A stretch of 64,000 nucleotides of DNA from Syntrophobacterales bacterium (GCA_050124835.1 JASFEM010000002.1:794-64793); one strand, 5' to 3'. Positions 13,146 to 63,047 are shown, counted from the stretch's first letter. Translations and numbers: made by a program. Notes: a model not told the origin generated them from the letters alone.

Positions 13146-13300
13146 GGATTGGAGATTGCAGATTTTAGATTGCGGATTGCAGATTGCGGATTGAAGGATT
13201 GGGGAATTAAAGAACGAGGGAATAGGATAGGATTAGGCAGAAATGCTACTTTAATCCCTGAATTCAGATATTTTAGACACTTTAGACATCTTAGACATTT
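13146..13300. repeat. Degenerate heptanucleotide tandem repeat array (GATTGCA/GATTGCG units, then TTAGACA units)
   Basis: agattgc agatttt agattgc ggattgc agattgc ggattga ... ; then tttagacac tttagacat cttagacat. Confidence 0.8.
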
Positions 13301-43213: not shown

Positions 43214-44595
43214 TCAGAATCTAGAAATATTTTGCCTGGATTGAGAATACCCCGTGGATCGAAAGCTTTTTTGATTCGACGCATCGCCTCCAAACCCAGC
43301 TTGTCGATCTCCATACCCAAGTAGGGTATCTTGGTGATACCAATACCGTGCTCTCCGGATAGGGTTCCTCCCAGAGCTAAGGTCGCCTGAAAAATCTCGT
43401 TGACCGCCTGTTCTGTCCGGGCTACCTCATCTGCATCATTCCTGTTGAGCATAATGTTCACATGGACATTACCGTCACCTGCATGGCCAAAGCAAAGAAT
43501 GATGAGTCGGAATCGCTCACCAATTTCCTCCAGCTTGGCGACTATATCCGGAATGCGACTTCGGGGCACGGCGATATCTTCGCTCACCTTGTGCGGATTA
43601 AGCTTGAAGAGTGCAGGAGATACGGCACGGCGTGCCTGCCACAGTGTCTCTGCCTCCTCCTCATTGGCCGCCACATCCACTTGCCTAGCCCCTTGCCCCA
43701 AACAGAGAGTACGGATTTCCTCTGCGTGGCGGACTACCCCCTCACGAACCCCATCTACCTCGATAAGGAGAAGTGCCCCTGCATCTCTAGGAAGCCCAAT
43801 TTGCAGGTATTCTTCCACACATTGGATGGACCGCTGATCCATAAATTCCAGAGCACTGGGGAGAAGACCCGCTTTAATGATCTTTGTTACCGTCTCAACG
43901 GCCTCACTCAGTCGGTTAAAAACTGCCATCAACGTCCTGCGGCTCTCAGGTTGGGGAAGTAGCTTGAGCACCACCTTGGTAATGATGGCAAGGGTCCCTT
44001 CCGAGCCCACAAGTAATTTGGTAAGATCGTAGCCCACAACCCCCTTAGCGGTCTGGACCCCCGTCTTAACCAACTCACCTGAAGCCAGTACAGCTTCTAA
44101 GCCGATGACATAATCCTTGGTGACCCCGTATTTCAGAGCTCGAGCCCCACCCGCACATTCAGCCACATTTCCACCAATGGTGCAAAAGGCCAAGCTGGCC
44201 GGATCCGGTGGATAGAACAATCCCTGCTCTGCCAGCTTATCCTGTAGGTGTCCTGTCACCACTCCTGGTTCAACCACCGCAACCATATTCTCCGGATCTA
44301 TGGACAGAATCCGATTCATTCGAGATAGTCCCAGGACAACACCCCCCCGAACCGGAAGGGAACCACCGCTCATACCACTTCCCGCCCCCCGGGGAATGAG
44401 GTAAAAGGGGATTTCATTGGCCAACCGCACAATCCCAACAATTTCCTGAACATCAGCCGGAAAAACTACAGCCTCAGGGTTGTAGCGAAGATCTGTGGCA
44501 TCATACCCATAACAGATAAGATCTTCAGGGTCGGTTCGACAGTGACGCCGTCCGACGATTTTCGAAAGCTCGCGGATCGTCTCTCTGCTGAGCAT
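43210..44595 (-). CDS. FAD-linked oxidase (GlcD / D-lactate dehydrogenase family)
   Basis: FAD-binding PCMH domain (PRGAGSGMSGG) and C-terminal FAD-oxidase domain. Stop/start overlap with the Fe-S subunit. Confidence 0.85.
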   Translation of the reverse strand: MLSRETIRELSKIVGRRHCRTDPEDLICYGYDATDLRYNPEAVVFPADVQEIVGIVRLANEIPFYLIPRGAGSGMSGGSLPVRGGVVLGLSRMNRILSIDPENMVAVVEPGVVTGHLQDKLAEQGLFYPPDPASLAFCTIGGNVAECAGGARALKYGVTKDYVIGLEAVLASGELVKTGVQTAKGVVGYDLTKLLVGSEGTLAIITKVVLKLLPQPESRRTLMAVFNRLSEAVETVTKIIKAGLLPSALEFMDQRSIQCVEEYLQIGLPRDAGALLLIEVDGVREGVVRHAEEIRTLCLGQGARQVDVAANEEEAETLWQARRAVSPALFKLNPHKVSEDIAVPRSRIPDIVAKLEEIGERFRLIILCFGHAGDGNVHVNIMLNRNDADEVARTEQAVNEIFQATLALGGTLSGEHGIGITKIPYLGMEIDKLGLEAMRRIKKAFDPRGILNPGKIFLDSD

Positions 44596-44889: not shown

Positions 44890-46260
44890 CTATAGTTTGT
44901 GAGGATCGAGAACGGAAGTGATGGATGAGGGATTCTCCATTTGGTGACCCAGAAACTCCACCTGATTTCGGACACCACTCTTTTCTTGAATTTGTCGGGT
45001 GATGTTATCTACAGCGTGAATTACGGTAGCGTGGGAGCGATTGAACGCTTGACCGATTGACTCTAGAGTCTCATCGGTATATTTACGGCAGAAATACATG
45101 CCGAGATTACGCGGGTAGACCACCCCTTTCTTGCGCGAATTAGACTTTAGGGCTTCAACAGACACTTTGAAATACTGGCAGATAATCTGTTGAACCCGTT
45201 CTATACTGATAGCCTCGCGGCTGTCACAGACCGACTCCAGAACCTCGTGCGCCAATCTGAGATCTATGGGTTTGTCGAGGAGCGACGACTTGGCGACGAT
45301 ACCTATTATGGAGCTTTCCAACTGCCGTACATCCCTGGTTATGTGAGTAGCCAAAAGTTCTGCCACCTCCGCCGGCAGTTGGACTCCCTCGTTGGCCGCT
45401 TTTTTCTCCAGAATTTTGAGCCTGGTCTGGAAATCGGGCGGTTCAATGTGGGTAACCATCCCAGCGGTTAACCGTGATTGCAATTTGCTTTCTAGCTTGG
45501 GAATGTCTCTAGGAAAGTGGGTTCCGGTAAATATGACTCGCTTACCGTACCGACCTAAGGCGTCAAGGGTGTAGGACAACTCCGACTGTGTCTTCTCCTT
45601 GCCGCTGAGAAATTGTACCTCCTCCAAAAGAAGTACATCGCACTTGCTGCGGTACTTATCTTTGAATCCATCCATGCGCCGCTGTTTGATGGCAACAACC
45701 ATCTCGTTGGTAAACTCCTCAGCTGTCAGGTAGTGAACCCGGGTGCTGTGATTCAGGTTGAGGATGTGATTACCGATGGCATGAGAAAGGTGACTTTTCC
45801 CGAGACCAGTATCAGCCAACAAATATAGGGAGCTGCACGGGCTGTGGTCACCGTTGGCAATGGCAAAGGCTGCAGAGAAAGCAAAACTATTGCCCGTGCC
45901 GACAACGAATTGGTCGAAGGTGAACCGCCGATTGAGACGGTACAGATGTCCATTGTCATCCACAGGCAAAGGAAGCTCTAATTGGCTGGAATTTTTCGGC
46001 TCTTTTTTAGACCTTCGAGGCGGGGTCGCCAAACGGAGCTGGAGGTCCCGAGGGGTACCACCATGCCGTTCCCAACTTTTCCTTATATCAGCTAGATAGT
46101 TCTCCCGAACCCAGTTGAGAAAGAATCGGTTCGGGCATGCCAGGGAAATCTCACCCTCCTTCGAGGTTACCAGCTCCAGAGGTTCGATCCACATCTTAAA
46201 ACAATTGTTGGAGACCTTACTTTGCAGATCTTCCTTAGTATGTTTCCAGATTTCCTCCAT
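44890..46260 (-). CDS. dnaA: Chromosomal replication initiator protein DnaA
   Basis: AAA+ Walker A GLGKSHL, sensor motifs, and C-terminal DNA-binding domain VYPRNLGMYFCRKYTDETLESIGQAFNRSHATVIHA. Confidence 0.95.
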   Translation of the reverse strand: MEEIWKHTKEDLQSKVSNNCFKMWIEPLELVTSKEGEISLACPNRFFLNWVRENYLADIRKSWERHGGTPRDLQLRLATPPRRSKKEPKNSSQLELPLPVDDNGHLYRLNRRFTFDQFVVGTGNSFAFSAAFAIANGDHSPCSSLYLLADTGLGKSHLSHAIGNHILNLNHSTRVHYLTAEEFTNEMVVAIKQRRMDGFKDKYRSKCDVLLLEEVQFLSGKEKTQSELSYTLDALGRYGKRVIFTGTHFPRDIPKLESKLQSRLTAGMVTHIEPPDFQTRLKILEKKAANEGVQLPAEVAELLATHITRDVRQLESSIIGIVAKSSLLDKPIDLRLAHEVLESVCDSREAISIERVQQIICQYFKVSVEALKSNSRKKGVVYPRNLGMYFCRKYTDETLESIGQAFNRSHATVIHAVDNITRQIQEKSGVRNQVEFLGHQMENPSSITSVLDPHKL

Positions 46261-48187: not shown

Positions 48188-49198
48188 CTAGCATATTCTC
48201 GGTAACTGCTCCCCACTAAGCATATCCACGATCCGGCTACCCCCGATTTCCGTTTTGAGAATTACCCTGCCAGGATGTTCAGAGACTACCTCACCTATGA
48301 TACAGCTCTCCCGGCCGAGGGGATGTTGACGCATTGCATCCAGAACTAACTCAGCCGCCTCTGGTGCCACCAAAGCAAGTAACTTTCCCTCGTTGGCTAC
48401 GTACAAAGGATCCAAGCCCAGCAGTTCGCAAGCAGCGCTCACCCCTGGCCGTGTAGGCAGACTGACCTCATGTAACTGAATACCTATCCCTGACTGAAGT
48501 GCAACCTCGTTAAGCGCAGTGGCTACCCCGCCGCGGGTCGGATCTCGCAGCACATGGATCTTTTGGCTCGCCTTCAGCATCTCACTCACGAGGCCGTTCA
48601 GTGGAGCCGAATCACTTCTTATTTCCGTCTGGAAAGAAAGCCCTTCGCGTTTGGAAAGTACCGCTACGCCGTGGTCTCCCATGGGACCGTTTATCAATAC
48701 GATATCGCCAGCTCTGCCGTTTTGACCGGCAATCTTCACGCCTGGCGGTATGGCCCCCACACCGGCCGTATTGATGAAGATTCGATCCGCCTTTCCTCTC
48801 TCCACCACTTTCGTGTCCGCAGCCACGACCTGAACCCCTGCATCCCAGGCTGCCGAGGCCATCGACTTCACCAGTCGCTCCAGATCAGCCAATTCAAGTC
48901 CTTCCTCTAAAATAAAGCCAACGCTGAGGTAGAGGGGCTGAGCTCCGCGCATGGCCAGATCATTGACAGTACCGTGTACTGCAAGACTGCCAATATCTCC
49001 ACCCGGGAAAAAAATGGGATCGACCACGTAGGAGTCCGTGCTCATGGCCAGGCTCATACCCTGGATCTCCAAAAAGGCGCTGTCATTTAATTCTGAAAGA
49101 ATGGGATTTTCCAAGGCGGGCATAAAAGTCCGGGCTACGAGTTCCTGCGAAGCCCTGCCACCTGCACCGTGGTCCATCTGAATTCTGTCAGTCTTCAT
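48188..49198 (-). CDS. hypE: [NiFe]-hydrogenase maturation factor HypE
   Basis: AIR-synthase-related fold, DHGAGG N-terminal motif, C-terminal PRIC. Confidence 0.9.
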   Translation of the reverse strand: MKTDRIQMDHGAGGRASQELVARTFMPALENPILSELNDSAFLEIQGMSLAMSTDSYVVDPIFFPGGDIGSLAVHGTVNDLAMRGAQPLYLSVGFILEEGLELADLERLVKSMASAAWDAGVQVVAADTKVVERGKADRIFINTAGVGAIPPGVKIAGQNGRAGDIVLINGPMGDHGVAVLSKREGLSFQTEIRSDSAPLNGLVSEMLKASQKIHVLRDPTRGGVATALNEVALQSGIGIQLHEVSLPTRPGVSAACELLGLDPLYVANEGKLLALVAPEAAELVLDAMRQHPLGRESCIIGEVVSEHPGRVILKTEIGGSRIVDMLSGEQLPRIC

Positions 49199-49247
49199 GG
49201 GGTCTTTCCTCAGGGTAAAGGTAGTGAGTCAGAGTCAGCAACCACTT

Positions 49248-49315
49248 TCAAATCCGAAATCCGAATATCGAAATACTAAACAAATTCAAATTTCCAAAAT
49301 CCAAATGACCAAAAC
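49248..49315. repeat. Heptamer-family repeat in the hypD-hypE spacer
   Basis: caaatcc gaaatcc gaatatc gaaatac taaacaaattcaaatttccaaaatccaaatgacc. Confidence 0.8.
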
Positions 49316-49341
49316 AGCGAAGCCATGAAATGGTCGGCGCA

Positions 49342-50427
49342 TCAATCTCGATGATATTTGTAATAGGCCGCACAGGTACCTTCACTTGAAACCATACAGG
49401 GTCCGTACGGATTTGTCGGGGTGCAACTCTTACGAAAGAGGCCGCATTCCAGAGGCGTGCACACCCCTCGAAGTACTTCGCCGCAGCGGCATCCGGGCAA
49501 CTCACGGGCCGGCGGAACGGTTAGGTCGAAGTGACTCTCCGCGGCGTGAGCCGTATATTTTTTCCTGAGTCTCAGACCACTTTGGGAGATGTGGCCAAGG
49601 CCGCGCCAGAGGGTGTCGGCGGGCTCAAACACTTCTTCCATGAGTTGCCGAGCTCGAGGATTACCCTTTGCGTCAACGGCGCGACTGTATTGAATCTCAA
49701 CTTCGCATCGCCCCTCTTCAATTTGGCAAACCAACATATAGATGCTCTGCAAAATGTCCACCGGCTCAAATCCACTTACTGTGCAGGACTTACCATGCCG
49801 ATCCACCACGTTCTGGTAGGGCTCGGTTCCGATGATGGTGGTCACGTGGCCCGGGCAGAGGAACCCATCAATGTTCACCTCGTCAGCGGCAAGGAGCGTC
49901 TCCAGTGCCGGAGGCAACAACTTGTGTGCTGATAGCACCATAAAATTGTCCAGACGTTCTTGATGGGCCTGGTGAACAGCGGCTGCGATCGTGGGCACTG
50001 TTGTCTCGAAACCAATACCCAGCATGACCACTCTCCGATCTCGATGCTGGCGAGCCAATTCCAAAGCATCGAAGCTTGCATAGACCATCCTCACATCCGC
50101 CCCGCGGGCCTTCTCCTGTTGCAGCGAAGACTCGGAACCGGGCACCCGCATTAGATCACCAAAGGTGGCAACTGTTACATCGCGCTCTTGGCAAAGCATG
50201 ATTGCTTTATCGATGTCCTGAGTTGCTGTTACACACACCGGACATCCGGGGCCGGAAATTAGAGTGATGGTCTCGGGGAGAAGCTCCTTCAGTCCCGAGC
50301 GAAAAATTGCCACCGTATGCGTACCGCACACTTCCATAAAACGAACAGGGGTGTGGGACTTCTTCCGAATAGCCTCGACAATGCTCCCGGCTAGTTTTGG
50401 ATCTCGGTATTCATCCTGGTATTTCAT
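49342..50427 (-). CDS. hypD: [NiFe]-hydrogenase maturation factor HypD
   Basis: MKYQDEYRD..., motifs CGTH and GPGCPVC. Confidence 0.9.
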   Translation of the reverse strand: MKYQDEYRDPKLAGSIVEAIRKKSHTPVRFMEVCGTHTVAIFRSGLKELLPETITLISGPGCPVCVTATQDIDKAIMLCQERDVTVATFGDLMRVPGSESSLQQEKARGADVRMVYASFDALELARQHRDRRVVMLGIGFETTVPTIAAAVHQAHQERLDNFMVLSAHKLLPPALETLLAADEVNIDGFLCPGHVTTIIGTEPYQNVVDRHGKSCTVSGFEPVDILQSIYMLVCQIEEGRCEVEIQYSRAVDAKGNPRARQLMEEVFEPADTLWRGLGHISQSGLRLRKKYTAHAAESHFDLTVPPARELPGCRCGEVLRGVCTPLECGLFRKSCTPTNPYGPCMVSSEGTCAAYYKYHRD

Positions 50428-50454
50428 ATGAGAAAGTCTCCCTCCTTCTCAGCT

Positions 50455-50630
50455 AAAGCTGAAAATCCGAAATCCGAAGCACGAAATTCGAAACAATTTT
50501 CAAATTTTCTAAATCCAAAATTCAAAACGAATCGGAATTATCAGGCGCTTAAGAATTGGGTTTTGGTAATTTGAATTTTGAATTTCGGATTTGTTTCGTA
50601 TTTCGATATTCGATATTCGAATTTATAGCT
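50455..50630. repeat. Heptamer-family repeat array in the hypF-hypD spacer
   Basis: gaaaatccgaaatccgaagcacgaaattcgaaac...ttgaattttgaatttcggatttgtttcgtatttcgatattcgatattcgaattt. Confidence 0.85.
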
Positions 50631-50674
50631 ATCGCAAACTGGCTAATAAGATCACGACCCGCCCACCACAGTGG

Positions 50675-52948
50675 CTACTGTTCTTCTAGGCGCATGGCTC
50701 CAACCACAGCCTGCCCTAAAGAAATACAGGCGTCGTTGGCTGGAATTAGCTGAGGTGTATACACATCCAATCCTGATTTTCTCAGTCTGGCTTCCAAGTT
50801 CTCCAGCAGAAAGACATTCTGGAACACACCCCCGGAGCAGACAACCTTGTCGAGGCCATGAAGTTGACAGAGATACAAGGACACCTCGGCAAACATCTCC
50901 ACCAAGGTTAAATGAAACTTGCCGCTAATCAGTTCTGGCGCCACTCCTGAGACTACATCTTCATAAACCTGCCTGAAAATGGCTGTTGGGCTCAAAAGTA
51001 ATTTCTCTTCATCCTCTTTATATTCGTACTGGTATTTTTCTGTTGTTGGTTCTAGGCACTGTTCCAATTCGATGGCCGCCTGCCCCTCATAGGCAATGCG
51101 GTCCTTCAGTCCTGCAATTGCTGTCACACCATCAAAGAGTCTTCCGCAACTTGAGGTGAGGGGGCTATTCACCCCCCGCTGCATCATTTGGAGCAAGACC
51201 CCTATTTGGTGCCGGTCCCATCTTTCAAGTAACTGAACTTCATCCTGGAAGATGTCTTCGCCAAAAGTGGCCCACAAATAGGCCACCGCCATTCGCCACG
51301 GCTCTTTTATGGCTTTGGCCCCACCGGGCATGGGCACATATTCAAAATGGGCCACTCTTTCGTAACTGCTCTCATCCGATACCAAGATTTCTCCGCCCCA
51401 GACGGTGCCATCCGCGCCAAAACCGGTTCCATCCAGGGCTAGTCCCAATACTTTGTCCCTTAGCCCGTGTTCTGCCATGCAACTAACCACATGGGCGTGA
51501 TGGTGCTGCACTGCCAGGGTGGGAAGCTCGTCCTGGGCCTCGGCCACTTGGGTTGTCAGATAGTCTGGGTGGAGATCATGAACTAATAGGCGGGGACTCA
51601 CCTCAAGGATCCTCCGTAGGTGATCCACTGTCTGCTCGAGAAACTGCAATGTCTCCAGATTTTCGAGGTCGCCGATATGCTGCCCAACAAATGCCCGATT
51701 TTCTTTGGTCAGACAAATAGTACCTTTCAATTCGCCTCCCAAAGCCAGGACTTGAGGAACAGGTTTTCTTAGAAAAATCGGCACTGGTACGTATCCTCTT
51801 GATCTCCGTATTTGTCTCGGTCGGCCTTCCGCTATTCTGAGCACCGAATCATCACTGCGCAGTAGGATATCTCGGTTGTGCAAAAGAAAGTAGTCAGCTA
51901 TATTTCCTAGCCGCTCTAAGGCCTCGTGGTTGTCTATTGCGATGGGCTCCTCGCTGATGTTGCCGCTGGTCATCACCAGGGCTAGAAAGGGATGAGAGAG
52001 AAGCAAGTGGTGAAGAGGCGTGTAAGGCAGCATCACACCGAAGTAACGATTTCTTGGAGCCACTTCAGGGGCAATGAGACTTCTCAGTCGCTTTGGGACG
52101 ATAACGATGGGACGCTGTGGGGAAGTGAGCAGTTGCCGCTCCTCTTCTCCTATCAGCGCATAACGTTCAATCTGTTCCAAACTGGATGACATGAGGGCCA
52201 AAGGCTTCTCTTCCCTGCCCTTTCTCCAGCGGAGTCTCTCGACCGCCTCGTTATGGGTAGCATCAACCGCAAGGTGAAATCCACCCAATCCCTTTAATGC
52301 AATGATTGCCCCCTGGTTGAGCAAACTGGCTGTCTCGGATATAGCATCTTCGCTGCCCAGGTCTTTACCACCACTATCGGCCAAGTAGACCTGCGGGCCA
52401 CAGACCCAACAAGCATTGGGTTGGGCATGAAAGCGCCGATCGAGCGGATTGTGGTATTCACGCTCACAGTCATCACACATGGTAAAGACAGCCATGGAGG
52501 TCTTTGACCTGTCATAAGGTATATCGTTAATTATGGTGTACCGCGGACCACAATTGGTGCAGTTGATAAAGGGGTATAGGTACCGCCTGTCCTGCGGGTC
52601 AAAGAGCTCCCGGAGGCAATCGGTGCAGGTTGTTGTGTCGGGAGATATGAGGGCTGCTCGCTCCTCACCTTGTTCGCTGGATTTTATTTCGAAACGATTG
52701 TAGTCAGCTGCGGGCAGTTCCTCGGTGTCTATCTGGGTAATAATTGCCAGTGGCGGGGTTAATTCCGGGAGTTCTTTTAGAAAATGCTGGAGAGCTTTAC
52801 GGTCACCTTCTACCTCTATTTCCACACCCTTTGGTGTGTTAGCTACGTAACCGTTTAACCGATGGTGGTGAGCCAGTTGGTAAATGAACGGACGAAAACC
52901 TACACCCTGGACAATTCCTTGGATGTGAACCCTAAGTCTTAGCGCCAT
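50675..52948 (-). CDS. hypF: [NiFe]-hydrogenase maturation carbamoyltransferase HypF
   Basis: Acylphosphatase domain (VQGVGFRPF), two Zn-finger CxxC pairs, YrdC and Kae1-like domains. Confidence 0.95.
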   Translation of the reverse strand: MALRLRVHIQGIVQGVGFRPFIYQLAHHHRLNGYVANTPKGVEIEVEGDRKALQHFLKELPELTPPLAIITQIDTEELPAADYNRFEIKSSEQGEERAALISPDTTTCTDCLRELFDPQDRRYLYPFINCTNCGPRYTIINDIPYDRSKTSMAVFTMCDDCEREYHNPLDRRFHAQPNACWVCGPQVYLADSGGKDLGSEDAISETASLLNQGAIIALKGLGGFHLAVDATHNEAVERLRWRKGREEKPLALMSSSLEQIERYALIGEEERQLLTSPQRPIVIVPKRLRSLIAPEVAPRNRYFGVMLPYTPLHHLLLSHPFLALVMTSGNISEEPIAIDNHEALERLGNIADYFLLHNRDILLRSDDSVLRIAEGRPRQIRRSRGYVPVPIFLRKPVPQVLALGGELKGTICLTKENRAFVGQHIGDLENLETLQFLEQTVDHLRRILEVSPRLLVHDLHPDYLTTQVAEAQDELPTLAVQHHHAHVVSCMAEHGLRDKVLGLALDGTGFGADGTVWGGEILVSDESSYERVAHFEYVPMPGGAKAIKEPWRMAVAYLWATFGEDIFQDEVQLLERWDRHQIGVLLQMMQRGVNSPLTSSCGRLFDGVTAIAGLKDRIAYEGQAAIELEQCLEPTTEKYQYEYKEDEEKLLLSPTAIFRQVYEDVVSGVAPELISGKFHLTLVEMFAEVSLYLCQLHGLDKVVCSGGVFQNVFLLENLEARLRKSGLDVYTPQLIPANDACISLGQAVVGAMRLEEQ

Positions 52949-53615
52949 CTAATTCAGCTTTGCGGTCGCTCACCCGCTCTCTGAGCCAGTCGGCCCAGGA
53001 ATCCAATCCTTCACCTGTACGGCAGGAAACCTCGAAGATCTCCAGATCGGCATTTAGCTGCAAGGCCCGCTCTCTCATTTTCCCCACATCACATTCAACG
53101 TAAGGGAGTAAGTCAATCTTGTTTATGAGTAGCACCCTGGATTCTTGAAACATTAAGGGATATTTTAGGGGTTTATCATCTCCCTCAGCAACACTGAGGA
53201 TCATAGCCTTCATGTCCTCACCCAGGTTGAATTCAGCCGGGCACACCAAATTCCCTACGTTTTCAACCATCAGTAGATCAAGATTTCCCAGATCCAAAGC
53301 GTCTAAACTGGATTTGATCATGTTGCCATCCAGATGGCAAGATCCACCGGTGTTGAGTTGCACCACCTGAACCCCCTTCTGCCCAATTCGCTCCGCATCG
53401 TAGGATGATTGAATATCTCCCTCGATTACGCCCATGCGAATCTCTTGGCGGAGGGCATCGATGGTCCTTTCCAATAGTGACGTTTTACCCGCTCCAGGTC
53501 CACTCATCAGGTTGATGACGAATAAGCCGGCTTGACGAAAAATTCTTCGATTGTCCTCGGCCAGCCGTTCATTGGCTGCCAAAATGTCACGGACTACTGG
53601 TATTTTCAGGGTCAT
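52932..53615 (-). CDS. hypB: Hydrogenase nickel-incorporation GTPase HypB
   Basis: P-loop SGPGAGKTSLL and CH motif region. Confidence 0.9.
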   Translation of the reverse strand: MTLKIPVVRDILAANERLAEDNRRIFRQAGLFVINLMSGPGAGKTSLLERTIDALRQEIRMGVIEGDIQSSYDAERIGQKGVQVVQLNTGGSCHLDGNMIKSSLDALDLGNLDLLMVENVGNLVCPAEFNLGEDMKAMILSVAEGDDKPLKYPLMFQESRVLLINKIDLLPYVECDVGKMRERALQLNADLEIFEVSCRTGEGLDSWADWLRERVSDRKAELDGAKT

Positions 53616-54023: not shown

Positions 54024-54195
54024 GGGTCACGGCGCAACGTATAAACGGCTTTTTTGGCCTTCTTATATTTGTCCTCAACTACGCTCTCTGGGGTACTGAA
54101 GCCACTCGATTGTGGTATTCCAACTCACTTTTACGTAAGCATTTCTTATTTTCAATCCAAAATCTACAACCTGAAATCTGCAATCCATTGCCTTC

Positions 54196-56454: not shown

Positions 56455-58410
56455 TTAGCCCAGATTCTCCGCCTCACTCACCCAGGAACCAACGATGCGG
56501 CCGGTATCCCGTACATCATAGCCGCCCAGTGCCATCACCTGGTCCTTGAAACCCTGGGTGGCAATAACCTGTAGCAATTTTTGCACCAGAGGATTTCTGA
56601 AATGCTCAGCAGGAATCACAAGATCATATCGTTCGGTAGTCACCGGAATGAAATCGAGGCTTAAGGCTTGTGCCGCTGCGAGAATGCCCATACCAGCGTC
56701 GGCAGTGGAGCTCAACACGGCAACGGCAACTGCCATGTGGGTGTATTCCTCCCGCTGGTAACCGCTGATACTCGCAGGATCTAACCCTTCCTGTGCCAAC
56801 CGCCAATCCAGCAGAATACGGGTTCCTGATCCGGCCTGCCGATTAACAAAGCTCAACTCAGAGCGACAAAGATCCGCCAGGCCGTTTATACCTTTTGGAT
56901 TACCAGGCGCAACGATCAATCCCTGTTCGCGATGAACCAGATTTACCAAATAAACCTCCACATCAGGCAAGTAGCGTTGAATATAGGAACTATTATATTC
57001 TCCGGTTTCGGTGTCAAGCAAATGAGAGCCAGCCAGATGAGCTGAGCCTTTCCTCAAAGCCAACAGGCCGCCTAGGCTGCCCACATTGCTGGAGGCCAGG
57101 CTAATCTGCGGATCACATTTTTTGAGAAGATTGGCAATAAGATCCAGAGTCATGTCATGGCTGCCCACCGCCACCAAGGTACGCTCGATTCCCTGCCTAT
57201 TGGCAAGCAAGCTGACAGGGTGAGGTTCGGTCTCTGTAATCCCCTCAACTGTTTCCGGGATTCTCAGGAAGCCGGTGGCCTGGCTCAAGGAGGTAATGGA
57301 GCCTGCCCCCCGCGGCAGTGGTGTCGCCACCAACCGATCCCCCACCCTGCCGAGATTCACCCTGAGAAATTCTTCAACCCCAAGCTTGGAGGGCAACTTC
57401 TGGGAAGGATAAGCATCTACCTGCTCAGATTCCGGCTCGTCAAGACCTTGCATACGATATAAGAGAGGACGAACAAATTGTTCCATACTGATGACTGCGG
57501 ATACCGGATAGCCCGGATTGCCAACCACCGGTTTGCCTTGGATCTCCCCGAGGACCGTTGGTTTACCCGGCATAATTGCCACTCCGTGTACCAGCACCTT
57601 GCCCAATTCAGCTATCAGGTTGGTCGTGTGATCTTCCGAACCAGCCGAAGATCCGGCATTGATTATTATCAGGTCGTAGTTCCCGGCCAGCCCCTCCAAC
57701 AGTACTTGGCGGAGACGATCAGGGTCGTCTGGTATTGTTGGATGGCGATCACATAAGCCGCCCCACTGGCGAATCATATTGAGCAGCACCCAGGAGTTGA
57801 ACTCCACAATCTTACCCACCGGCACCAGGTCAGCGTCCCTCAGACTTTCTGCCTCTAGCAGTTCTCCACCAGTGGGAATGATCATCGCTCGAGGCCGCCG
57901 TTTCACCTCCAATTCCAGAATTCCGGCCGCAAGAAGGGCTCCAATGTCGTAGGCAGTGATCGAATGATTTTGGGGTAACAGGAGCTCAGTGGCCACAATA
58001 TCCTCTCCCACCTTGCGCACGTGCTGCCACGGAAAGGCAGCGGCCTGAATCTCCACCCGTTGGTCATCTATTTGATGGATATTCTCCACCATGATCACCG
58101 CATCGGTGCCTGGAGGCATGGGCTGCCCTGTGTTGATCCAATGGACCTCGCTTTCCAACTCCAGCTGCATGGGACTATCCAGCGTGGCGCCAAAAGTGCG
58201 CTCCGCCCTGACGGCAATGCCATCCATGGCAGCAGAATGAAAAGTTGGCGTCGAAAAGCGGGCAAACACCGGAGCCGCTGTCACCCTTCCCGCAGCCTCA
58301 ACTGATGGGACGGTCTCCCCGGAAAGGAAGGTTTCCAGTTCCCAATGGTCCAGAAATATCTTTCGAGCCTCCTCCAGGGACTTCATTTTCAGGTAAATTC
58401 GTCGAGCCAT
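56455..58410 (-). CDS. moeA: Molybdopterin molybdotransferase MoeA fused to a C-terminal periplasmic-binding-protein-like domain
   Basis: MoeA N and MoCF-biosynthesis domains (IIPTGGEL) followed by ~250 aa of a PBP-like fold. Confidence 0.8.
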   Translation of the reverse strand: MARRIYLKMKSLEEARKIFLDHWELETFLSGETVPSVEAAGRVTAAPVFARFSTPTFHSAAMDGIAVRAERTFGATLDSPMQLELESEVHWINTGQPMPPGTDAVIMVENIHQIDDQRVEIQAAAFPWQHVRKVGEDIVATELLLPQNHSITAYDIGALLAAGILELEVKRRPRAMIIPTGGELLEAESLRDADLVPVGKIVEFNSWVLLNMIRQWGGLCDRHPTIPDDPDRLRQVLLEGLAGNYDLIIINAGSSAGSEDHTTNLIAELGKVLVHGVAIMPGKPTVLGEIQGKPVVGNPGYPVSAVISMEQFVRPLLYRMQGLDEPESEQVDAYPSQKLPSKLGVEEFLRVNLGRVGDRLVATPLPRGAGSITSLSQATGFLRIPETVEGITETEPHPVSLLANRQGIERTLVAVGSHDMTLDLIANLLKKCDPQISLASSNVGSLGGLLALRKGSAHLAGSHLLDTETGEYNSSYIQRYLPDVEVYLVNLVHREQGLIVAPGNPKGINGLADLCRSELSFVNRQAGSGTRILLDWRLAQEGLDPASISGYQREEYTHMAVAVAVLSSTADAGMGILAAAQALSLDFIPVTTERYDLVIPAEHFRNPLVQKLLQVIATQGFKDQVMALGGYDVRDTGRIVGSWVSEAENLG

Positions 58411-58444: not shown

Positions 58445-58528
58445 ATTCGAATCTTAATTCATTAATCCCCTAATCCTGCAATCCCTTAATCCCAAATCTG
58501 CAATCTTAAATCTTAAATCTCAAATCCC
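58445..58528. repeat. Heptamer-family repeat (reverse-orientation AATCC / AATCTGC units)
   Basis: taatccc ctaatcc tgcaatccc ttaatccc aaatctgc aatctta aatctta aatctca aatccc. Confidence 0.85.
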
Positions 58529-59752
58529 TATTACTTCAACAACCTCTCCTGCATAAAGTCCCTCGGCATGACGATGAATACGGACGAGACCGTCGGCGTG
58601 CACCAGAGTGGAAATCAGCGCGGATTCTCCGAAAATGGGATCGGCCTCGAGATTTCCGTCCTTTTCTCGCAACTTCACCCGGATGAAATCTTCCCTTCCC
58701 TGCTTGGAGGCTACATTCCGACTTAGTCGGGCCTGGACCGGCCTACCCTCTCCAAGTGACAGTGTAGTCCCACTGAGATGGGACATGAAGGGGCGCACCA
58801 GCACCTGGAAAACAACCATTGCCGAGGCCACATGCCCGGGAAGCCCCCAGAAAGCTTTTTCACTGGTCTGTACCAGGAGGGTGGGCTTGCCTGGGCTTAT
58901 TGCGACACCGTGAACCAGAACTGCACTATCGTCGAATGAACCGAGGACTTCCAAAGTAAGATCCCGGGTGCCCACCGAGGATCCGCCTGAGATAAGGCAG
59001 ATATCAGCTTGATTCAGCGCCTCCTGACACTTCTCTTTCATCGCTTGGAATTGATCAGGAGCCAAACCCAGCTGCACCGGCTCTCCTCCCCAATTTACAA
59101 CCATGGCAGCCAGGCTGTGGGAATTGATATCACGCAGTTCGCCAGGCCGGGGCTCTTGTTCCATGGGAACAATTTCATCACCGGTGCTGATGATTGCCAC
59201 CTTTGGCTTCTGCCTTACTCTGATACTCTGCTGACCGAGCCCGGCAAGCAGTCCGATTTCCTGTGCCCGCAGTCGTTTTCCTGCTTGCAATACCTCCTGA
59301 CCGGCTCGAAAGTCGTCGCCCGGTCGGACCACGTTTTCCAGCGGGGCTACACTGCGGCTGACGGCCACGCTTCTCTGGTCCAACTCTTCGGTGTATTCCA
59401 CCATCACCACACTGTCCGCTCCCGCAGGAATCATACCCCCAGTGGGAATCCTGGCCGCCTTCCCATTTCTCAGTTCAAAGGCAGGGGTCTCCCCCATTCC
59501 CACCTCTCCGGTAATCTCTAAAAGGGAAGGCAAACTCTCTGATGCGCCGAAGGTATCTTTGGCCCGGACAGCGTAACCATCAACGGTAGACCGGGTGAAA
59601 GCCGGGAGGTCCTCATTGGCAACAATTGGCTCTGCCAGCACTCGGCTCAATGCCTGACGAATGTGAATTTCCTCAGAAGGAAGGAGGGGGAAACGTTGAA
59701 ATTCGTCCCACACTTCTTCACGCGTTTTTACCTTGAAAAAACCGGTTTTCAC
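58520..59752 (-). CDS. moeA: Molybdopterin molybdotransferase MoeA (second paralog, canonical length)
   Basis: TVDGYAVRAKDT...RIPTGGMIP motifs. Confidence 0.9.
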   Translation of the reverse strand: MKTGFFKVKTREEVWDEFQRFPLLPSEEIHIRQALSRVLAEPIVANEDLPAFTRSTVDGYAVRAKDTFGASESLPSLLEITGEVGMGETPAFELRNGKAARIPTGGMIPAGADSVVMVEYTEELDQRSVAVSRSVAPLENVVRPGDDFRAGQEVLQAGKRLRAQEIGLLAGLGQQSIRVRQKPKVAIISTGDEIVPMEQEPRPGELRDINSHSLAAMVVNWGGEPVQLGLAPDQFQAMKEKCQEALNQADICLISGGSSVGTRDLTLEVLGSFDDSAVLVHGVAISPGKPTLLVQTSEKAFWGLPGHVASAMVVFQVLVRPFMSHLSGTTLSLGEGRPVQARLSRNVASKQGREDFIRVKLREKDGNLEADPIFGESALISTLVHADGLVRIHRHAEGLYAGEVVEVIGI

Positions 59753-59993: not shown

Positions 59994-60140
59994 TTAGTCG
60001 GTGCACTCGACGCACAAACCTTCCTCATTAAGGCATCCATCACAATGCATACGGCGGCAAACTCTACACTCTTGGTTCGCTAAGATGTCATCCTTGTCAT
60101 GTACTTCACCACACGCTACACAAGCGAAATCCTCAGCCAT
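59994..60140 (-). CDS. Small Cys-rich protein (48 aa, four CxxC pairs)
   Basis: Not in the ORF track (<60 aa). MAEDFACVACGEVHDKDDILANQECRVCRRMHCDGCLNEEGLCVECTD. The + strand ORF 60001-60189 is its antisense shadow. Confidence 0.45.
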   Translation of the reverse strand: MAEDFACVACGEVHDKDDILANQECRVCRRMHCDGCLNEEGLCVECTD

Positions 60141-60392
60141 GATTTCACCCCCTTCCATTTATTTACTTAGAAAAATAGGTATGAATTAGGTTGCTGTCAA
60201 TAGCAGCAGTTGAATGAACAACTGTGGCTAAGCGAGGGGGCAAGTCTGCTTTTAGATTTGAAATTACAGATTGACTTTATAGTTTTTTCGAACTTGCGCA
60301 AACGTAAAATAGTTTTATATTATAATTGCTTGTCAATACTGAAAAACTTGATACGACCATGGATGGCCACTTTTTTCGAATAGGAAGGTGAT

Positions 60393-62036
60393 ATGAATAT
60401 TCCACAAGATCCACATTCCCGCTCACAGAGTCCTATCCCACAAGAGGTTCAACATCAGCTGAGACTGGTGTTGGATCAATTGCCAAACACCGTACCCCTT
60501 TATCTCTTTACCAAAGAAGGCGTAAATAATATTTACAATCAGGCCGCAAAAGAAGTGGTTCAAGCCTTTGCCCAACTCGGCGACAAAATCCAATTGCGAG
60601 AATTGACTCTCGATGATGAACTCGCCACGAAATGGGAAGTTGATGTCTCCCCCACCATCCTTTTCGACCCCGAGCATTATGCGATCCGTTTTCTCGGCGC
60701 CCCAATGGGTGAAGAAGGGAGGACCCTTCTGGAAGCCGTCGTCCTTATCGGACTTCGGAAAAGCAACCTCAGTGAACAGTCACTCAAGGTAATAGAAAAC
60801 ATCAACTCGCCACGTAAGGTGAAAATTTTCTCCAGTCCCACCTGCCCTTACTGCCCACAACAGGCGGTCAATGGTCTAAAGGCGGCAATTGCCAAACCCG
60901 AATTCATTTCTCTAGAGATTATTGACATTCAAGCAAATCCCCATCTTGCCGAACTTTATTCTGCCCACAGTGTTCCCCAGACCTTCGCCAACGATATTCT
61001 GATTGCCCAAGGAGCTCAGCCCGAGGAGCTTTTTATTCTTTCTCTGGAAAAAATGCAGGAACAAGCCGTATTCATTCCAGATATTGACGCGGAAGTCGTG
61101 GAGAACGATCTGGTGATCGTGGGTGGAGGACCGGCAGGACTTACTGCCGGCATCTATGCGGTGCGCAGCGGTCTTCAGACAGCGGTGGTGGAAAGGGACA
61201 CACTTGGGGGGCAATTGGCAACAACTCCTCTAGTAGAAAACTATCCCGGTTTCACCCAGGTGGGAGGGAAGGCGCTGGTTGACTTGCTCGTGAGTCATGC
61301 GCTGGAATATGTGACTATTTTCCAGGGAGAGGAAGTAATGGAGGTTCAGCCCGAAGAGGGGCTTACCGTCATTACCAGCAGACGCCGTTTCAAGACCAAG
61401 GCAGTTCTTCTGGCTACAGGAGCAACTCACAAACACCTGGGAGTCCCTGGCGAGTCCCGGCTCTCAGGCCGCGGTGTCACCTACTGTAGCACGTGTGACG
61501 GGCCATTATTTCAAAATAAAAAGGTTATCATGGTGGGGGGTGGCAACAGTGCCGTCACTGAAGCGCTTTATCTACATAATATTGGTGCGCACGTCACGGT
61601 GGTACATCGGCGCGACACCTTTAGGGCTCAGGAGCATTTGACCCAATATCTCTTCTCTGCAAACATACCCGTTCTCTGGAATACAGAGGTTAAAGAGATC
61701 ATGGGTGAGGACAAGGTGAGGGAGGTTCTCCTCTACAACAACGCTACTGAGGAGACCCGAACGATGCCCGTAGACGGGGTTTTTATTGCTATTGGCTATC
61801 TGCCCGCGGTGGAGTTGGCGAAAAGACTGGAGGTAAAACTCACAGAAGATGGCTTCATCAAGCGTGATGAACATCACCGGACCAATGTTCCCGGCATTTA
61901 TTCCGCCGGGGACGTGGAGGGTGGCTACAAGCAGATAGTGACCGCAGTGGGTCAGGGTGCCGAGGCCGCCCTGAGCATATACGAAGACCTGATGAATCCT
62001 TACTGGCTGAAAAAGCGATCTGTTAAAACCGGTTGA
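60393..62036 (+). CDS. AhpF-like NAD(P)H disulfide reductase: N-terminal thioredoxin-fold domains (CPYC) fused to a thioredoxin-reductase-type flavoprotein
   Basis: SSPTCPYCPQ; GGGPAG FAD motif; redox-active CSTCDG; second Rossmann GGGNSA. Confidence 0.8.
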   Translation: MNIPQDPHSRSQSPIPQEVQHQLRLVLDQLPNTVPLYLFTKEGVNNIYNQAAKEVVQAFAQLGDKIQLRELTLDDELATKWEVDVSPTILFDPEHYAIRFLGAPMGEEGRTLLEAVVLIGLRKSNLSEQSLKVIENINSPRKVKIFSSPTCPYCPQQAVNGLKAAIAKPEFISLEIIDIQANPHLAELYSAHSVPQTFANDILIAQGAQPEELFILSLEKMQEQAVFIPDIDAEVVENDLVIVGGGPAGLTAGIYAVRSGLQTAVVERDTLGGQLATTPLVENYPGFTQVGGKALVDLLVSHALEYVTIFQGEEVMEVQPEEGLTVITSRRRFKTKAVLLATGATHKHLGVPGESRLSGRGVTYCSTCDGPLFQNKKVIMVGGGNSAVTEALYLHNIGAHVTVVHRRDTFRAQEHLTQYLFSANIPVLWNTEVKEIMGEDKVREVLLYNNATEETRTMPVDGVFIAIGYLPAVELAKRLEVKLTEDGFIKRDEHHRTNVPGIYSAGDVEGGYKQIVTAVGQGAEAALSIYEDLMNPYWLKKRSVKTG

Positions 62037-62101: not shown

Positions 62102-62392
62102 CTAGTCTTTCTCTCTTGGTGGCAAGTGCACCGGGATTCCTGCGGCGACCTTGGCCGCCTCCATTATGACTTCCGAAAGGATGGGATGAGGGTGGGTAGT
62201 CACCAGGAGGTCTTCGAGTGTGGCGCCCATCTCCAGAGCCAGAGTGGACTCGGCAATCATTTCAGATGCCTGCGGTCCTACCATCCCCACCCCCAGAATC
62301 AGACCGGATTCAGGCTCAGAGAGGATTTTCACTAGGCGATCAGCCGCCCCAGAGTCCGCGCTCGCCATAAAGCTTCCCCAACCAACGGCCAA
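62102..62392 (-). pseudogene. Remnant of a dihydrolipoamide-dehydrogenase-type gene: only the C-terminal dimerisation domain is present
   Basis: GVGMVGPQASEMIAE...LEMGATLEDL...THPHPILSEVIMEAA matches the Pyr_redox_dim domain. No FAD/NAD domains lie upstream; a DsrC-like gene begins 4 bp away. Confidence 0.5.
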
Positions 62393-62396
62393 GGAT

Positions 62397-62744
62397 CTAC
62401 TCTATCTCATGCCGAATACGGGCAATCGCATCAGGAGTCGGCTTTGGAAGACCGGCAATCTTCCAAGCCTGGAGGGGATCTATAAACTCCTCGTATAGAC
62501 ACTGATCGGCCTGATGGACATTCTTACAAACGTATCGAACAATGGGAAAGGATTGGAAACGGTTATAGTAGTCTCTCATGAACTTTAAGATCTCCATCCT
62601 ATCCGTGGTGAGATCGCAATCGTCCACACCCTCCACCGTCTGAGTCAAAGCACAAGCAACCTTCTCGTTCCAGTCATCAGTGTTGAGTAGGTAACCTTCG
62701 TCATCTACTTCGATGGTTAGATCATCATATTGAATCGTACGCAT
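62397..62744 (-). CDS. TusE/DsrC-family protein with non-canonical C-terminus (no conserved Cys pair)
   Basis: DsrC fold signature ...RDYYNRFQSFPIVRYVCKN...KIAGLPKPT, but it ends PDAIARIRHEIE instead of GCV / KCI. Confidence 0.7.
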   Translation of the reverse strand: MRTIQYDDLTIEVDDEGYLLNTDDWNEKVACALTQTVEGVDDCDLTTDRMEILKFMRDYYNRFQSFPIVRYVCKNVHQADQCLYEEFIDPLQAWKIAGLPKPTPDAIARIRHEIE

Positions 62745-62965
62745 TTTGTTCCTCCTTTATTAGCAGATTTGTTGATCTCTTCAGTTAACCCCGCTGAGCA
62801 TTTCACAAGAAAAAGTTGGCCCAATTCTAATTTATTTTCTCTGCCCACTTGTAGCTGTAAATAAAACTACGGATAATAATAATCATAATAATTCCTATTG
62901 CCATGGTCGACTATTAGAAAAATTTATTACTGGAGAAAGAGCTGACTCAAAGAGATCACCCCAGA

Positions 62966-63047
62966 GGATTTCAGATTTGAGATTGCAGATCGCGGATTGC
63001 AGATTTAGGGATTGAGGGATTTTGGATTTGGGATTGCAAATTGCCGA
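62966..63047. repeat. Heptamer-family repeat (GATTGCA / GGATTTG units)
   Basis: cagattt gagattg cagatcg cggattg cagattt agggattg agggattt tggattt gggattg caaattg ccgatta. Confidence 0.85.

What the first reader, a model, noticed from the sequence alone, without database searches (positions are those of the whole stretch)
62397..62744. DsrC/TusE-family protein whose C-terminal arm lacks both conserved cysteines
Seen in sequence: the protein has the DsrC/TusE core up to …KIAGLPKPT. In place of the strictly conserved terminal GCV (DsrC) or xCI (TusE) it ends …PDAIARIRHEIE. The second cysteine normally found about 10 residues upstream is also absent. Established knowledge: the penultimate Cys is the persulfide or trisulfide carrier in both DsrC and TusE. 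Variants without the cysteines cannot relay sulfur and have been proposed to act in regulation; DsrC has an HTH-like fold. Its position next to an AhpF-like disulfide reductase and a broken lpd-type gene hints at a thiol-redox context.
Basis: partly seen in the sequence, partly recalled or inferred. Interest (0 to 1): 0.55.

Follow-up and report, generated by a model that had tools for sequence, protein, structure and literature searches.

The report
DsrC-like protein without arm cysteines
This is an intact, well-conserved small protein descended from the sulfur-carrier DsrC that has swapped its cysteine-bearing tail for a short helix; it belongs to a widespread, uncharacterised family that sits beside oxidative-stress and acetyl-CoA-forming enzyme genes, so it is real but not unique.

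Summary
ORF 62397-62744 (-) encodes a 115-aa DsrC/TusE-family protein. Similarity to DsrC stops at …GLPKPT; the tail is PDAIARIRHEIE, and the CysB position is a Trp.

It is not a frameshift or pseudogene. All of the 120 best database relatives that are complete at the C-terminus, and all 80 genome loci, lack the GCV end. Close orthologues (76-83% identity) keep the same tail, and dN/dS is 0.07-0.10.

The protein belongs to a large 'AWKIAGLP' clade in Desulfobacterota, Nitrospirota and a few Actinomycetota. The clade has an invariant internal C-x8-C pair (C73/C82) and clade-specific tails. [quoted passage not shown] In the closest genome the gene lies inside a pyruvate-dehydrogenase-type operon (E1α-E1β-X-E2-E3). 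The window has lost E2 and about 80% of E3.

Elsewhere the family sits immediately next to SOD, Tpx, DJ-1, rubrerythrin and DUF255-thioredoxin genes, 2-oxoacid:ferredoxin oxidoreductase or CODH/ACS. Cys-less DsrC-like domains also occur fused to rubrerythrin and to DJ-1.

Most likely it is a thiol-based accessory protein of stress defence, not a DsrAB sulfur carrier. This function is inferred, not shown. It is a new member of a known kind, of moderate interest.

The parts
62397..62744 (-). DsrC-like gene (115 aa plus stop). It has the DsrC fold and no arm cysteines.
   Evidence: ORF list. PF04358 and TIGR03342 hits. AF2 model with pLDDT 86.7 whose Foldseek hits with E<=0.01 are all DsrC/TusE chains. 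dN/dS is 0.065-0.097 against orthologues.
62400..62438 (-). C-terminal tail, residues 103-115 (TPDAIARIRHEIE). It replaces the …TGCV arm and is predicted to be a helix (H104-114).
   Evidence: Translation. The tail is conserved in orthologues. For the tail, pN is 0.06-0.10 against pS 0.5-0.7. DSSP on the AF2 model.
62463..62465 (-). Trp94 codon, at the position of DsrC CysB.
   Evidence: Alignments to DsrC structures. Trp is present in 114/114 family members.
62499..62528 (-). C73-KNVHQADQ-C82: a C-x8-C loop specific to the Cys-less clades. The two Cys are near-invariant, and H77 and Q78 are mostly conserved.
   Evidence: Translation. C73 196/196, C82 195/196, H77 148/196, Q78 181/196. The model places the two Cys around a hairpin (E71-74, E83-86) with lower confidence.
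62751..62756 (-). Shine-Dalgarno sequence AGGAGG, 6 nt before the ATG.
   Evidence: Sequence. GGAGG is the only conserved element in the upstream alignment of orthologues.
62105..62400 (-). Relic of a dihydrolipoyl dehydrogenase (E3/lpd) gene. About the last 100 codons remain, with one frameshift.
   Evidence: blastn and tblastn against the L001 E3 gene: residues 391-472, 75.6% aa identity. The three-frame reading shows 'ALWRARTLGR' in one frame and 'GAADRLVKIL…' in another; pN/pS is 0.20. PF02852 and TIGR01350 hits.
60393..62036 (+). Convergent neighbour. It is a thioredoxin-reductase-type flavoprotein with an N-terminal PDO/AhpF-like double thioredoxin fold (CPYC and CSTC motifs).
   Evidence: TIGR01292 scores 347.5 bits (cut-off 343.45). 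The AhpF equivalog scores only 325 against a cut-off of 503. Pfam domains. Orthologues lie beside the DsrC-like gene in L002 and near it in L006.

Best explanation
Shown: the gene is an intact, expressed-looking paralogue of DsrC under strong purifying selection. Its flexible Cys-bearing C-terminal arm (…PTGCV) is replaced by a short conserved helix, and CysB is replaced by an invariant Trp. It therefore cannot act as the DsrAB/DsrK trisulfide carrier or as TusE. It belongs to a large clade (core motif AWKIAGLP, near-invariant C73-x8-C82) found in Desulfobacterota, Nitrospirota and some Actinomycetota. In its closest relatives the gene sits between E1β and E2 of a pyruvate-dehydrogenase-type operon. 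In the window that operon has decayed, leaving only a frameshifted 3' lpd fragment, while this gene stayed intact. The gene's function is therefore not strictly tied to that complex.

Inferred: the protein is a small acidic accessory or adaptor protein working through protein-protein contacts. The internal C-x8-C loop would be its reactive site (dithiol/disulfide or persulfide chemistry). It would serve the oxidative and thiol-stress defence of anaerobes and the protection or servicing of oxygen-sensitive, CoA-dependent enzymes (PDH, 2-oxoacid:ferredoxin oxidoreductase, CODH/ACS).
For: Family and fold.

The tail is conserved and under selection. Every one of the 120 best relatives that is complete at the C-terminus, and all 80 genome loci, lack GCV. 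dN/dS is 0.065-0.097, and the tail has pN 0.06-0.10 against pS 0.5-0.7.

Conserved residues: C73 196/196, C82 195/196, W94 114/114.

The gene co-exists with a canonical DsrC in L039, so it is a paralogue and not a replacement.

PDH operon context is seen in L001, L007, L008, L021 and L040. The deletion in the window was mapped by blastn, and the relic carries a frameshift.

Neighbours immediately adjacent on the same strand: SOD at 0-28 bp in 8 loci, DJ-1, DUF255-thioredoxin, and OFOR αβ. Independent gene calls in L086 give Tpx-SOD-[gene]-…-DJ-1-rhodanese-DUF255 on one strand. The gene lies in a CODH/ACS cluster in Actinomycetota.

Of 83 loci, 44 carry at least one of these contexts. Their density falls steeply with distance; SOD drops from 8.3 to 0.6 per 100 kb.

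Fusions exist: rubrerythrin + Cys-less DsrC-like (P0214) and DJ-1 + Cys-less DsrC-like (P0238).

An AhpF-like reductase is a neighbour in the window, in L002 and in L006. The protein is acidic: pI 4.46, family median 4.9.
Against: There is no experimental datum for any member, and nothing in the searchable literature describes this clade.

Thirty-nine of 83 loci show none of the listed contexts, and the contexts are lineage-structured, so the counts are not independent.

In A. fulgidus DsrC, cysteines at about the same positions (Cys77/Cys85) are called 'structural' and were mutated to Ala for activity assays (PMC10861901). C73/C82 may likewise be merely structural.

SOD needs no thiol partner, so that linkage may reflect co-regulation only.

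The loop is the least confident part of the model, with block pLDDT of 69-79.

In the window the gene is monocistronic, and its neighbours are a relic and a convergent gene.
Confidence: 0.4

Rival explanations
1. It is a transcriptional regulator (the 'RspA' idea). The HTH-like part of the DsrC fold would bind DNA and control neighbouring stress or catabolic genes, perhaps sensing redox state through C73/C82.
For: Cys-less members are classed apart as RspA (PMC8477390). DsrC has an HTH-like motif, and A. vinosum DsrC was reported to bind dsr promoter DNA (my own knowledge; the papers are not held). Neighbourhoods vary widely, and the gene often has long upstream intergenic regions. Sigma-54 activators are adjacent in several loci, including L014, L015, L018, L069 and L070. 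The DJ-1 + DsrC-like fusion resembles DJ-1 + HTH one-component regulators (my own knowledge).
Against: The net charge is -11 and the pI 4.46; the family median is 4.9. The gene start lies 0-28 bp after the sod stop in 8 loci and 1 bp after it in L086. That implies production on the scale of an abundant enzyme. Upstream regions of orthologues share no motif except the ribosome-binding site. AF2 models the segment that is helical in DsrC (residues 71-86) as a hairpin.
Confidence: 0.2
2. It is a non-catalytic binding or assembly factor for acyl-CoA-forming enzyme complexes (PDH, OFOR, CODH/ACS). C73/C82 would be purely structural, and the stress-gene linkage would be co-regulation only.
For: The gene lies between E1β and E2 in PDH-type operons, directly after OFOR β (L078) or before OFOR α (L067), and inside CODH/ACS clusters. 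LipA is adjacent in L010 and L013. The equivalent cysteines in A. fulgidus DsrC are described as structural.
Against: The window keeps the gene after losing the PDH genes. Many loci have none of these enzymes. The three enzyme systems share no common subunit for it to bind. The near-absolute invariance of both Cys together with H77 and Q78 in the loop is more than is usual for structural residues.
Confidence: 0.15
3. It is a metal- or Fe-S-binding protein, using C31, C43, C73 and C82 (with or without H77), possibly as a redox or iron sensor.
For: Four cysteines are conserved in the query's subclade (113 of 196 members). Eight Desulfobulbia members lack C31 and C43 but end in -CC, which restores four Cys. 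Four other members carry an extra tail Cys. H77 is conserved in 148/196. The C-x8-C loop is the least confident part of the apo model.
Against: Twenty-four members have only C73 and C82, and 43 have three Cys. A four-ligand site is therefore not universal unless it forms across a dimer. No sequence match to any known cluster-binding motif was found.
Confidence: 0.12
4. It is a pseudogene, a recent frameshift, or a sequencing error of a canonical dsrC or tusE.
For: Nothing beyond the unusual tail. The adjacent lpd gene is truly broken.
Against: Orthologues at 66-83% identity have the same length, and those at 76-83% identity keep the same tail in the same frame. dN/dS is at most 0.1. Neither alternative frame encodes GCV. 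CysB is replaced by an invariant Trp, which a frameshift cannot explain.
Confidence: 0.01

Closest known systems
DsrC (gamma subunit / co-substrate of dissimilatory sulfite reductase; PDB 2v4j_C, 2xsj_C, 1sau, 1yx3)
   Same: Same Pfam family and overall fold: N-terminal hairpin, helical core and the …AGLPKP motif. Identity is 32-36% over residues 1-103. The family profile matches A. fulgidus DsrC best (E=4.8e-20), and that protein also has two extra Cys near the C73/C82 positions.
   Different: There is no C-terminal …TGCV arm, so no CysA. CysB is Trp. A 12-residue helical tail takes the arm's place. Residues 71-86 are modelled as a hairpin rather than helices (TM 0.53-0.62, rmsd 4-7 Å). No dsr genes were noted beside it in the loci examined (dsrAB/dsrMK were not specifically searched), apart from a canonical dsrC about 5 kb away in L039.
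TusE (YccK), sulfur relay protein for tRNA 2-thiouridine synthesis (PDB 7syb)
   Same: Same superfamily. Automated annotation names relatives 'TusE/DsrC/DsvC family sulfur relay protein' or 'tRNA 2-thiouridine synthesizing protein E'.
   Different: The TusE equivalog model scores 46 bits against a cut-off of 191. The relay cysteine (…xCI) is absent. No tusBCD genes were seen among its neighbours.
[quoted passage not shown] 2014, as cited in PMC8477390)
   Same: It is a DsrC-family protein lacking the conserved C-terminal cysteines and the AGLPKPTG-CA motif. A regulatory role has been proposed, and the function is unknown.
   Different: The primary paper is not held, so I could not verify that the published RspA set contains this AWKIAGLP clade. 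A second Cys-less clade, AWR[IV]AGLPNPGEEAKAYM, exists and may be the one originally described. I found no report of the conserved C-x8-C/Trp signature or of the PDH, OFOR, CODH and stress-gene neighbourhoods.
Rubrerythrin-DsrC-like and DJ-1/PfpI-DsrC-like fusion proteins (P0214, P0238; found here)
   Same: The C-terminal domain is a Cys-less DsrC-like module with a similar tail (…PRPSDDQLAHIK…, …PNPGEELKAYL). The fusion partners are the same families that flank the free-standing genes.
   Different: These are single polypeptides. P0214 keeps only the first Cys of the pair and has Ile instead of Trp. They are cluster representatives from metagenomes, and their contigs were not inspected.

Membership tests
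DsrC sensu stricto | DsrC/TusE fold and family-model match (PF04358, TIGR03342) | tested here: met
   PF04358 E=3e-19. TIGR03342 scores 70.1 bits against a cut-off of 53.5. All Foldseek hits to solved structures with E<=0.01 are DsrC/TusE chains.
DsrC sensu stricto | Penultimate CysA in a flexible C-terminal arm (…AGLPKPTGCV) | tested here: not met
   The tail is TPDAIARIRHEIE with no Cys after residue 82. Alignments to DsrC end at residue 103.
DsrC sensu stricto | CysB about 10 residues upstream of CysA | tested here: not met
   The aligned position is Trp94, which is invariant in 114/114 family members.
DsrC sensu stricto | Genomic or functional link to dsrAB / dsrMK(JOP) | not tested
   No second DsrC-family gene lies in the 64-kb window. 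dsrAB and dsrMK were not specifically searched in the window or the loci. The rest of the genome is unavailable.
TusE | Score above the TusE equivalog cut-off (NF008562) | tested here: not met
   46.1 bits against a cut-off of 191.
TusE | Conserved C-terminal relay cysteine (…xCI) | tested here: not met
   There is no Cys in the tail.
[quoted passage not shown] | DsrC-family protein lacking the conserved C-terminal cysteine(s) and the AGLPKPTG-CA motif | tested here: met
   The definition is as given in PMC8477390. For the sequence.
[quoted passage not shown] | Clusters with the published RspA reference sequences | not testable with these tools
   Venceslau et al. 2014 is not held, and the DiSCo supplements are not held. 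In my own tree the query clade is sister to another Cys-less clade and separate from DsrC and TusE.
[quoted passage not shown] | Regulatory (DNA-binding) function | not testable with these tools
   Only indirect indications are available: an acidic pI and no conserved upstream motif.

The most novel reading that the evidence does not exclude
The AWKIAGLP clade is an unrecognised functional class derived from DsrC. The redox-active cysteine pair has moved from the flexible arm to an internal C-x8-C loop. The protein would act as a thiol or persulfide adaptor linking disulfide reductases (AhpF/TrxR-like, lipoamide/E3, DUF255-thioredoxin, rhodanese) to the protection or repair of oxygen-sensitive acetyl-CoA-forming enzymes (PDH, OFOR, CODH/ACS) and to ROS defence in anaerobes.
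Probability: 0.25. Interest if true: 0.65.

Novelty: new member of a known kind. Interest (0 to 1): 0.4.

Why it matters
Genome annotation labels hundreds of these proteins 'TusE/DsrC/DsvC sulfur relay protein' or 'tRNA 2-thiouridine synthesizing protein E', although they lack the relay cysteines. This can inflate inferences about sulfur metabolism from metagenomes.

The comparative evidence gathered here turns a 'function unknown / maybe regulator' family into one with a testable hypothesis. That evidence comprises the invariant C-x8-C pair, the fixed Trp at the CysB site, gene starts 0-28 bp after sod, the neighbourhoods with DJ-1, DUF255, OFOR, PDH and CODH/ACS genes, and the rubrerythrin and DJ-1 fusions. 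The hypothesis is a thiol-based accessory protein of oxidative-stress defence in sulfate reducers and Nitrospirota.

For this window specifically, it also explains the broken lpd gene as the remnant of a decayed PDH-type operon.

Tried and rejected
Frameshift or pseudogene: rejected. Orthologue tails, dN/dS and the alternative reading frames all argue against it.

TusE: rejected. The equivalog score is far below the cut-off and the relay Cys is absent.

Second or canonical dsrC in the window: none was found by tblastn. The rest of the genome cannot be examined.

Conserved promoter or operator upstream of orthologues: only the SD sequence is conserved. The sigma-70-like matches are at the noise level, and no terminator was found.

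Known RNA element in the 300-bp leader: only sub-threshold plant-miRNA chance hits.

E1α, E1β or E2 remnants in the window: none.

Literature on this clade: eight searches found only the RspA naming and the 'structural' Cys77/Cys85 of A. fulgidus DsrC. Venceslau 2014 is not held.

A universal four-Cys metal site: weakened, because 24 members have only two Cys.

The figure of 564 'relatives' in the genome scan is not used as a family size. One of the two search patterns also matches canonical DsrC, and only the 80 loci kept were checked.

Full report
**1. The observation**

The minus-strand ORF 62397..62744 encodes 115 aa. AGGAGG lies 6 nt before its ATG. The protein matches Pfam DsrC (PF04358, E=3e-19, residues 7-103) and the NCBIfam subfamily model TIGR03342 (70.1 bits, cut-off 53.5). 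It fails the TusE equivalog (46.1 bits against 191).

phmmer and a family profile against all PDB chains hit only DsrC/TusE structures. Every alignment ends at residue 103, …AGLPKPT. The remaining residues are PDAIARIRHEIE. The residue aligned with DsrC CysB is Trp94.

**2. Not a damaged gene**

A search of 5.8 billion protein clusters returned 335 relatives. Nearly all of the best 120 are 110-117 aa. None of those complete at the C-terminus ends in GCV, and the closest (76-83% identity) carry the same tail, …KPTPDAIARIRHEL[DE].

Against the orthologues in L001, L006 and L007, synonymous sites are near saturation while the protein is conserved. dN/dS is 0.065 (L001) and 0.097 (L007). In the 13-residue tail pN is 0.06-0.10 against pS of 0.5-0.7.

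In L039 a canonical DsrC (…ACKFAGLPKPTGCV) lies about 5 kb from a member of this family. The family is therefore a paralogue of DsrC, not a replacement for it.

**3. What the family looks like**

- In 196 non-identical members, C73 is present in 196, C82 in 195, C31 in 161 and C43 in 121. In the loop between C73 and C82, H77 is present in 148 and Q78 in 181.
- W25, F66-P67 and A93-W94-K-I-A-G-L-P are invariant or nearly so.
- After GLP(K)P the tail differs between subclades but never carries the DsrC arm:
  - TP[DE]A/V-I/L/F-A-x-I-[KR]-H… in Desulfobacterota, which is the query's type.
  - …SEQVISYLKGEGGVV, …NPGDEVxMFKSWEPLGF, …ESGDKEHKIFRMLVPD, …AYGELxDxxKKLS and …DVVLTYLNYGQVPT, mostly in Nitrospirota.
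  - …GVHFVSVDGKxYxLEECC in Desulfobulbia.
- In a distance tree of 72 superfamily representatives, the AWKIAGLP clade groups next to a second Cys-less clade. That clade is AWR[IV]AGLPNPGEEAKAYM, also has Trp and mostly C-x8-C. Both are apart from canonical DsrC and TusE.
- An AlphaFold2 model built on 42 family sequences has pLDDT 86.7 and pTM 0.78. The tail is a helix (residues 104-114). Residues 71-74 and 83-86 form a hairpin bracketing the C-x8-C loop, which is the least confident region.
- All Foldseek hits with E<=0.01 are DsrC/TusE chains, at TM 0.53-0.62 and rmsd 4-7 Å. The fold is thus retained but remodelled in the C-terminal third.
- A. fulgidus DsrC is the best PDB match of the family profile. 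It has two additional cysteines at about these positions, which experimenters call 'structural' and mutate to Ala (PMC10861901).
- The protein is strongly acidic: pI 4.46, net charge -11, family median pI 4.9.

**4. The local context in the window**

In the closest complete genome (L001, CP070692.1, 83% identity) the gene lies between E1β and E2 of an E1α-E1β-X-E2-E3 operon. That operon scores as pyruvate-dehydrogenase type: TIGR03181 at 456 bits (cut-off 411) and TIGR01350 lpd at 490 bits.

L007 and L008 have the same order, and L021 and L040 have the operon adjacent.

blastn maps window 62756-62406 to the L001 gene and window 62361-62139 to the last 224 bp of the L001 lpd gene. Relative to L001, the window therefore lacks about 2.9 kb, comprising E2 and about 80% of E3. 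The remnant covers roughly E3 residues 372-472, contains one frameshift and shows relaxed constraint (pN/pS 0.20). No E1 or E2 remnant is present.

The 'broken lpd' is thus the scar of a decayed PDH-type operon in which only the DsrC-like gene was kept.

The convergent 'AhpF-like' gene is a TrxR-type flavoprotein with an N-terminal double thioredoxin fold. It passes the TrxR model (347.5 against 343.45) but not the AhpF equivalog (325 against 503). Its orthologues lie directly upstream on the same strand in L002, and 2.4 kb upstream in L006, which also shares the MoeA genes and a small Cys-rich ORF. This neighbourhood therefore recurs in the lineage despite rearrangement.

**5. Context across the family**

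I called ORFs in 83 non-redundant loci, clustered the neighbours within 4 kb and identified the recurrent clusters with Pfam and NCBIfam.

| Neighbour | Loci |
|---|---|
| Fe/Mn SOD | 11 |
| 2-oxoacid:ferredoxin oxidoreductase α/β | 9 |
| DJ-1/PfpI | 8 |
| Tpx | 7 |
| Rubrerythrins | 7, 5 and 4 (three separate clusters) |
| DUF255 thioredoxin | 7 |
| CODH/ACS Wood-Ljungdahl genes | 7 |
| PDH-type complex | 5 |
| LipA | 4 |

- In 8 of the SOD loci the gap is 28 bp or less and the strand is the same.
- DJ-1/PfpI lies directly downstream in L016, L025 and L030.
- The DUF255 thioredoxin lies directly downstream in L011 and L020.
- The oxidoreductase genes lie directly before or after the gene in L078 and L067.
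- The CODH/ACS genes are seen in the Thermoleophilia/Actinomycetes members and in L010 and L013.

Forty-four of 83 loci carry at least one of these contexts. As an internal control, their density collapses with distance from the gene. SOD falls from 8.3 per 100 kb within 1 kb to 0.6 at 4-7 kb. DJ-1 falls from 3.8 to 0, and DUF255 and Tpx from 3.2 to 0.

Independent database gene calls for L086 show, on one strand, Tpx-SOD-[gene, starting 1 bp after sod]-84 aa-YgaP-like-DJ-1-rhodanese-DUF255.

Two cluster representatives are fusions: rubrerythrin + Cys-less DsrC-like (P0214) and DJ-1/PfpI + Cys-less DsrC-like (P0238).

Caveats apply. The contexts are lineage-structured, 39 loci show none of them, and my ORF boundaries use the longest ORF.

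**6. Mechanism**

Three points are shown. The canonical sulfur-carrier mechanism is impossible, because there is no CysA, CysB or arm. The protein is under selection. It is retained when the flanking PDH genes are lost.

The rest is inferred. The family most likely acts through protein-protein contacts as a thiol-based accessory or adaptor, with the invariant C73-x8-C82 loop as its reactive site. It would work in the oxidative and thiol-stress defence of anaerobes and around oxygen-sensitive CoA-dependent enzymes. I put this at about 0.4.

The rivals are:
- a redox-responsive transcription factor, as proposed for RspA (0.2);
- a non-catalytic partner of the acyl-CoA-forming complexes, with merely structural cysteines (0.15);
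- a metal or Fe-S protein (0.12);
- a pseudogene or sequencing error (0.01).

The metal idea is suggested by the four Cys in this subclade and by the -CC tails that compensate for the loss of C31 and C43 in Desulfobulbia. It is weakened by 24 two-Cys members.

The regulator idea has three things against it: the acidity, gene starts within 0-28 bp of the end of an abundant enzyme gene, and the lack of any conserved upstream motif.

**7. Comparison and novelty**

[quoted passage not shown] Relatives of this gene are routinely annotated, misleadingly, as sulfur relay proteins. The window gene is therefore a new member of a known kind.

I did not find the following described anywhere in eight literature searches:
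- the clade signature: Trp at the CysB site, the C-x8-C pair and clade-specific tails;
- its embedding in PDH, OFOR and CODH/ACS clusters;
- its tight linkage and fusion to ROS-defence proteins.

The primary RspA paper could not be read, so I do not claim these points as new with confidence. Interest: 0.4.

Noticed in passing
window 62967-63035; also 13147-13191, 54176-54185, 58496-58505: Degenerate 7-bp tandem repeats (GATTGCA/GATTTGG/GATTGAG, core GATTGCAGAT) lie in intergenic DNA. There are 14 matches with up to one mismatch, against 5.5 expected. Similar repeats lie upstream of the orthologous gene in L002 and L007. This is possibly a lineage-specific intergenic repeat element.
   Followed up: partly
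window 59994-60158 (-): A 54-aa Cys-rich ORF (…CVACGEVH…CRVCRRMHCDGC…CVEC…) lies between MoeA and the AhpF-like gene. It has no Pfam or NCBIfam hit but is conserved at 74% identity in the same position in L006. It is probably a small zinc-ribbon-like protein.
   Followed up: partly
window 56455-58410 (-) and 58520-59752 (-): Two adjacent MoeA paralogues. The first is fused to a C-terminal periplasmic-binding-protein-like (PBP_like, PF12727) domain.
   Followed up: no
window 41915-44595 (-): An FAD-linked oxidase (461 aa) is followed by an HdrD-like protein with two CCG domains and a 4Fe-4S dicluster domain (432 aa). This looks like a lactate/glycolate-type dehydrogenase pair, of the kind proposed in the literature to reduce DsrC.
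   Followed up: no
window 44890-46260 (-); 48188-53615 (-): A DnaA gene is present, so the replication origin may lie nearby. A block of hydrogenase-maturation genes is also present: HypE-like, HypD, HypF and HypB.
   Followed up: no
L066, L071, L073, L075, L076, L077, L081, L084 (gene at about 7001-7357 in most): The Desulfobulbia subclade of the family lacks C31 and C43 and has a longer tail, …GVHFVSVDGKxYxLEECC, ending in two cysteines. It is often found after OFOR αβ. This could be a re-invented C-terminal thiol arm.
   Followed up: partly
P0214 (280 aa), P0238 (292 aa): Single polypeptides joining rubrerythrin or DJ-1/PfpI to a Cys-less DsrC-like domain. Their contigs were not inspected.
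   Followed up: partly
L086 3652-9408: A Nitrospirota same-strand array: Tpx, SOD, DsrC-like, 84-aa ORF, YgaP-like TM peptide, DJ-1/PfpI, rhodanese, DUF255 thioredoxin. It looks like an oxidative-stress or reactive-sulfur operon.
   Followed up: partly
P0121 (541 aa): A protein with five tandem DsrC-like domains, ending …AGLPRIVGTI with no arm cysteine.
   Followed up: no
L055, L058, L060, L082, L083: In the Thermoleophilia/Actinomycetes members the gene sits inside a Wood-Ljungdahl cluster (AcsB, CODH, CdhD, FolD, RACo). In L058, L060 and L083 it is preceded by a conserved ORF of about 100 aa with no Pfam match.
   Followed up: partly
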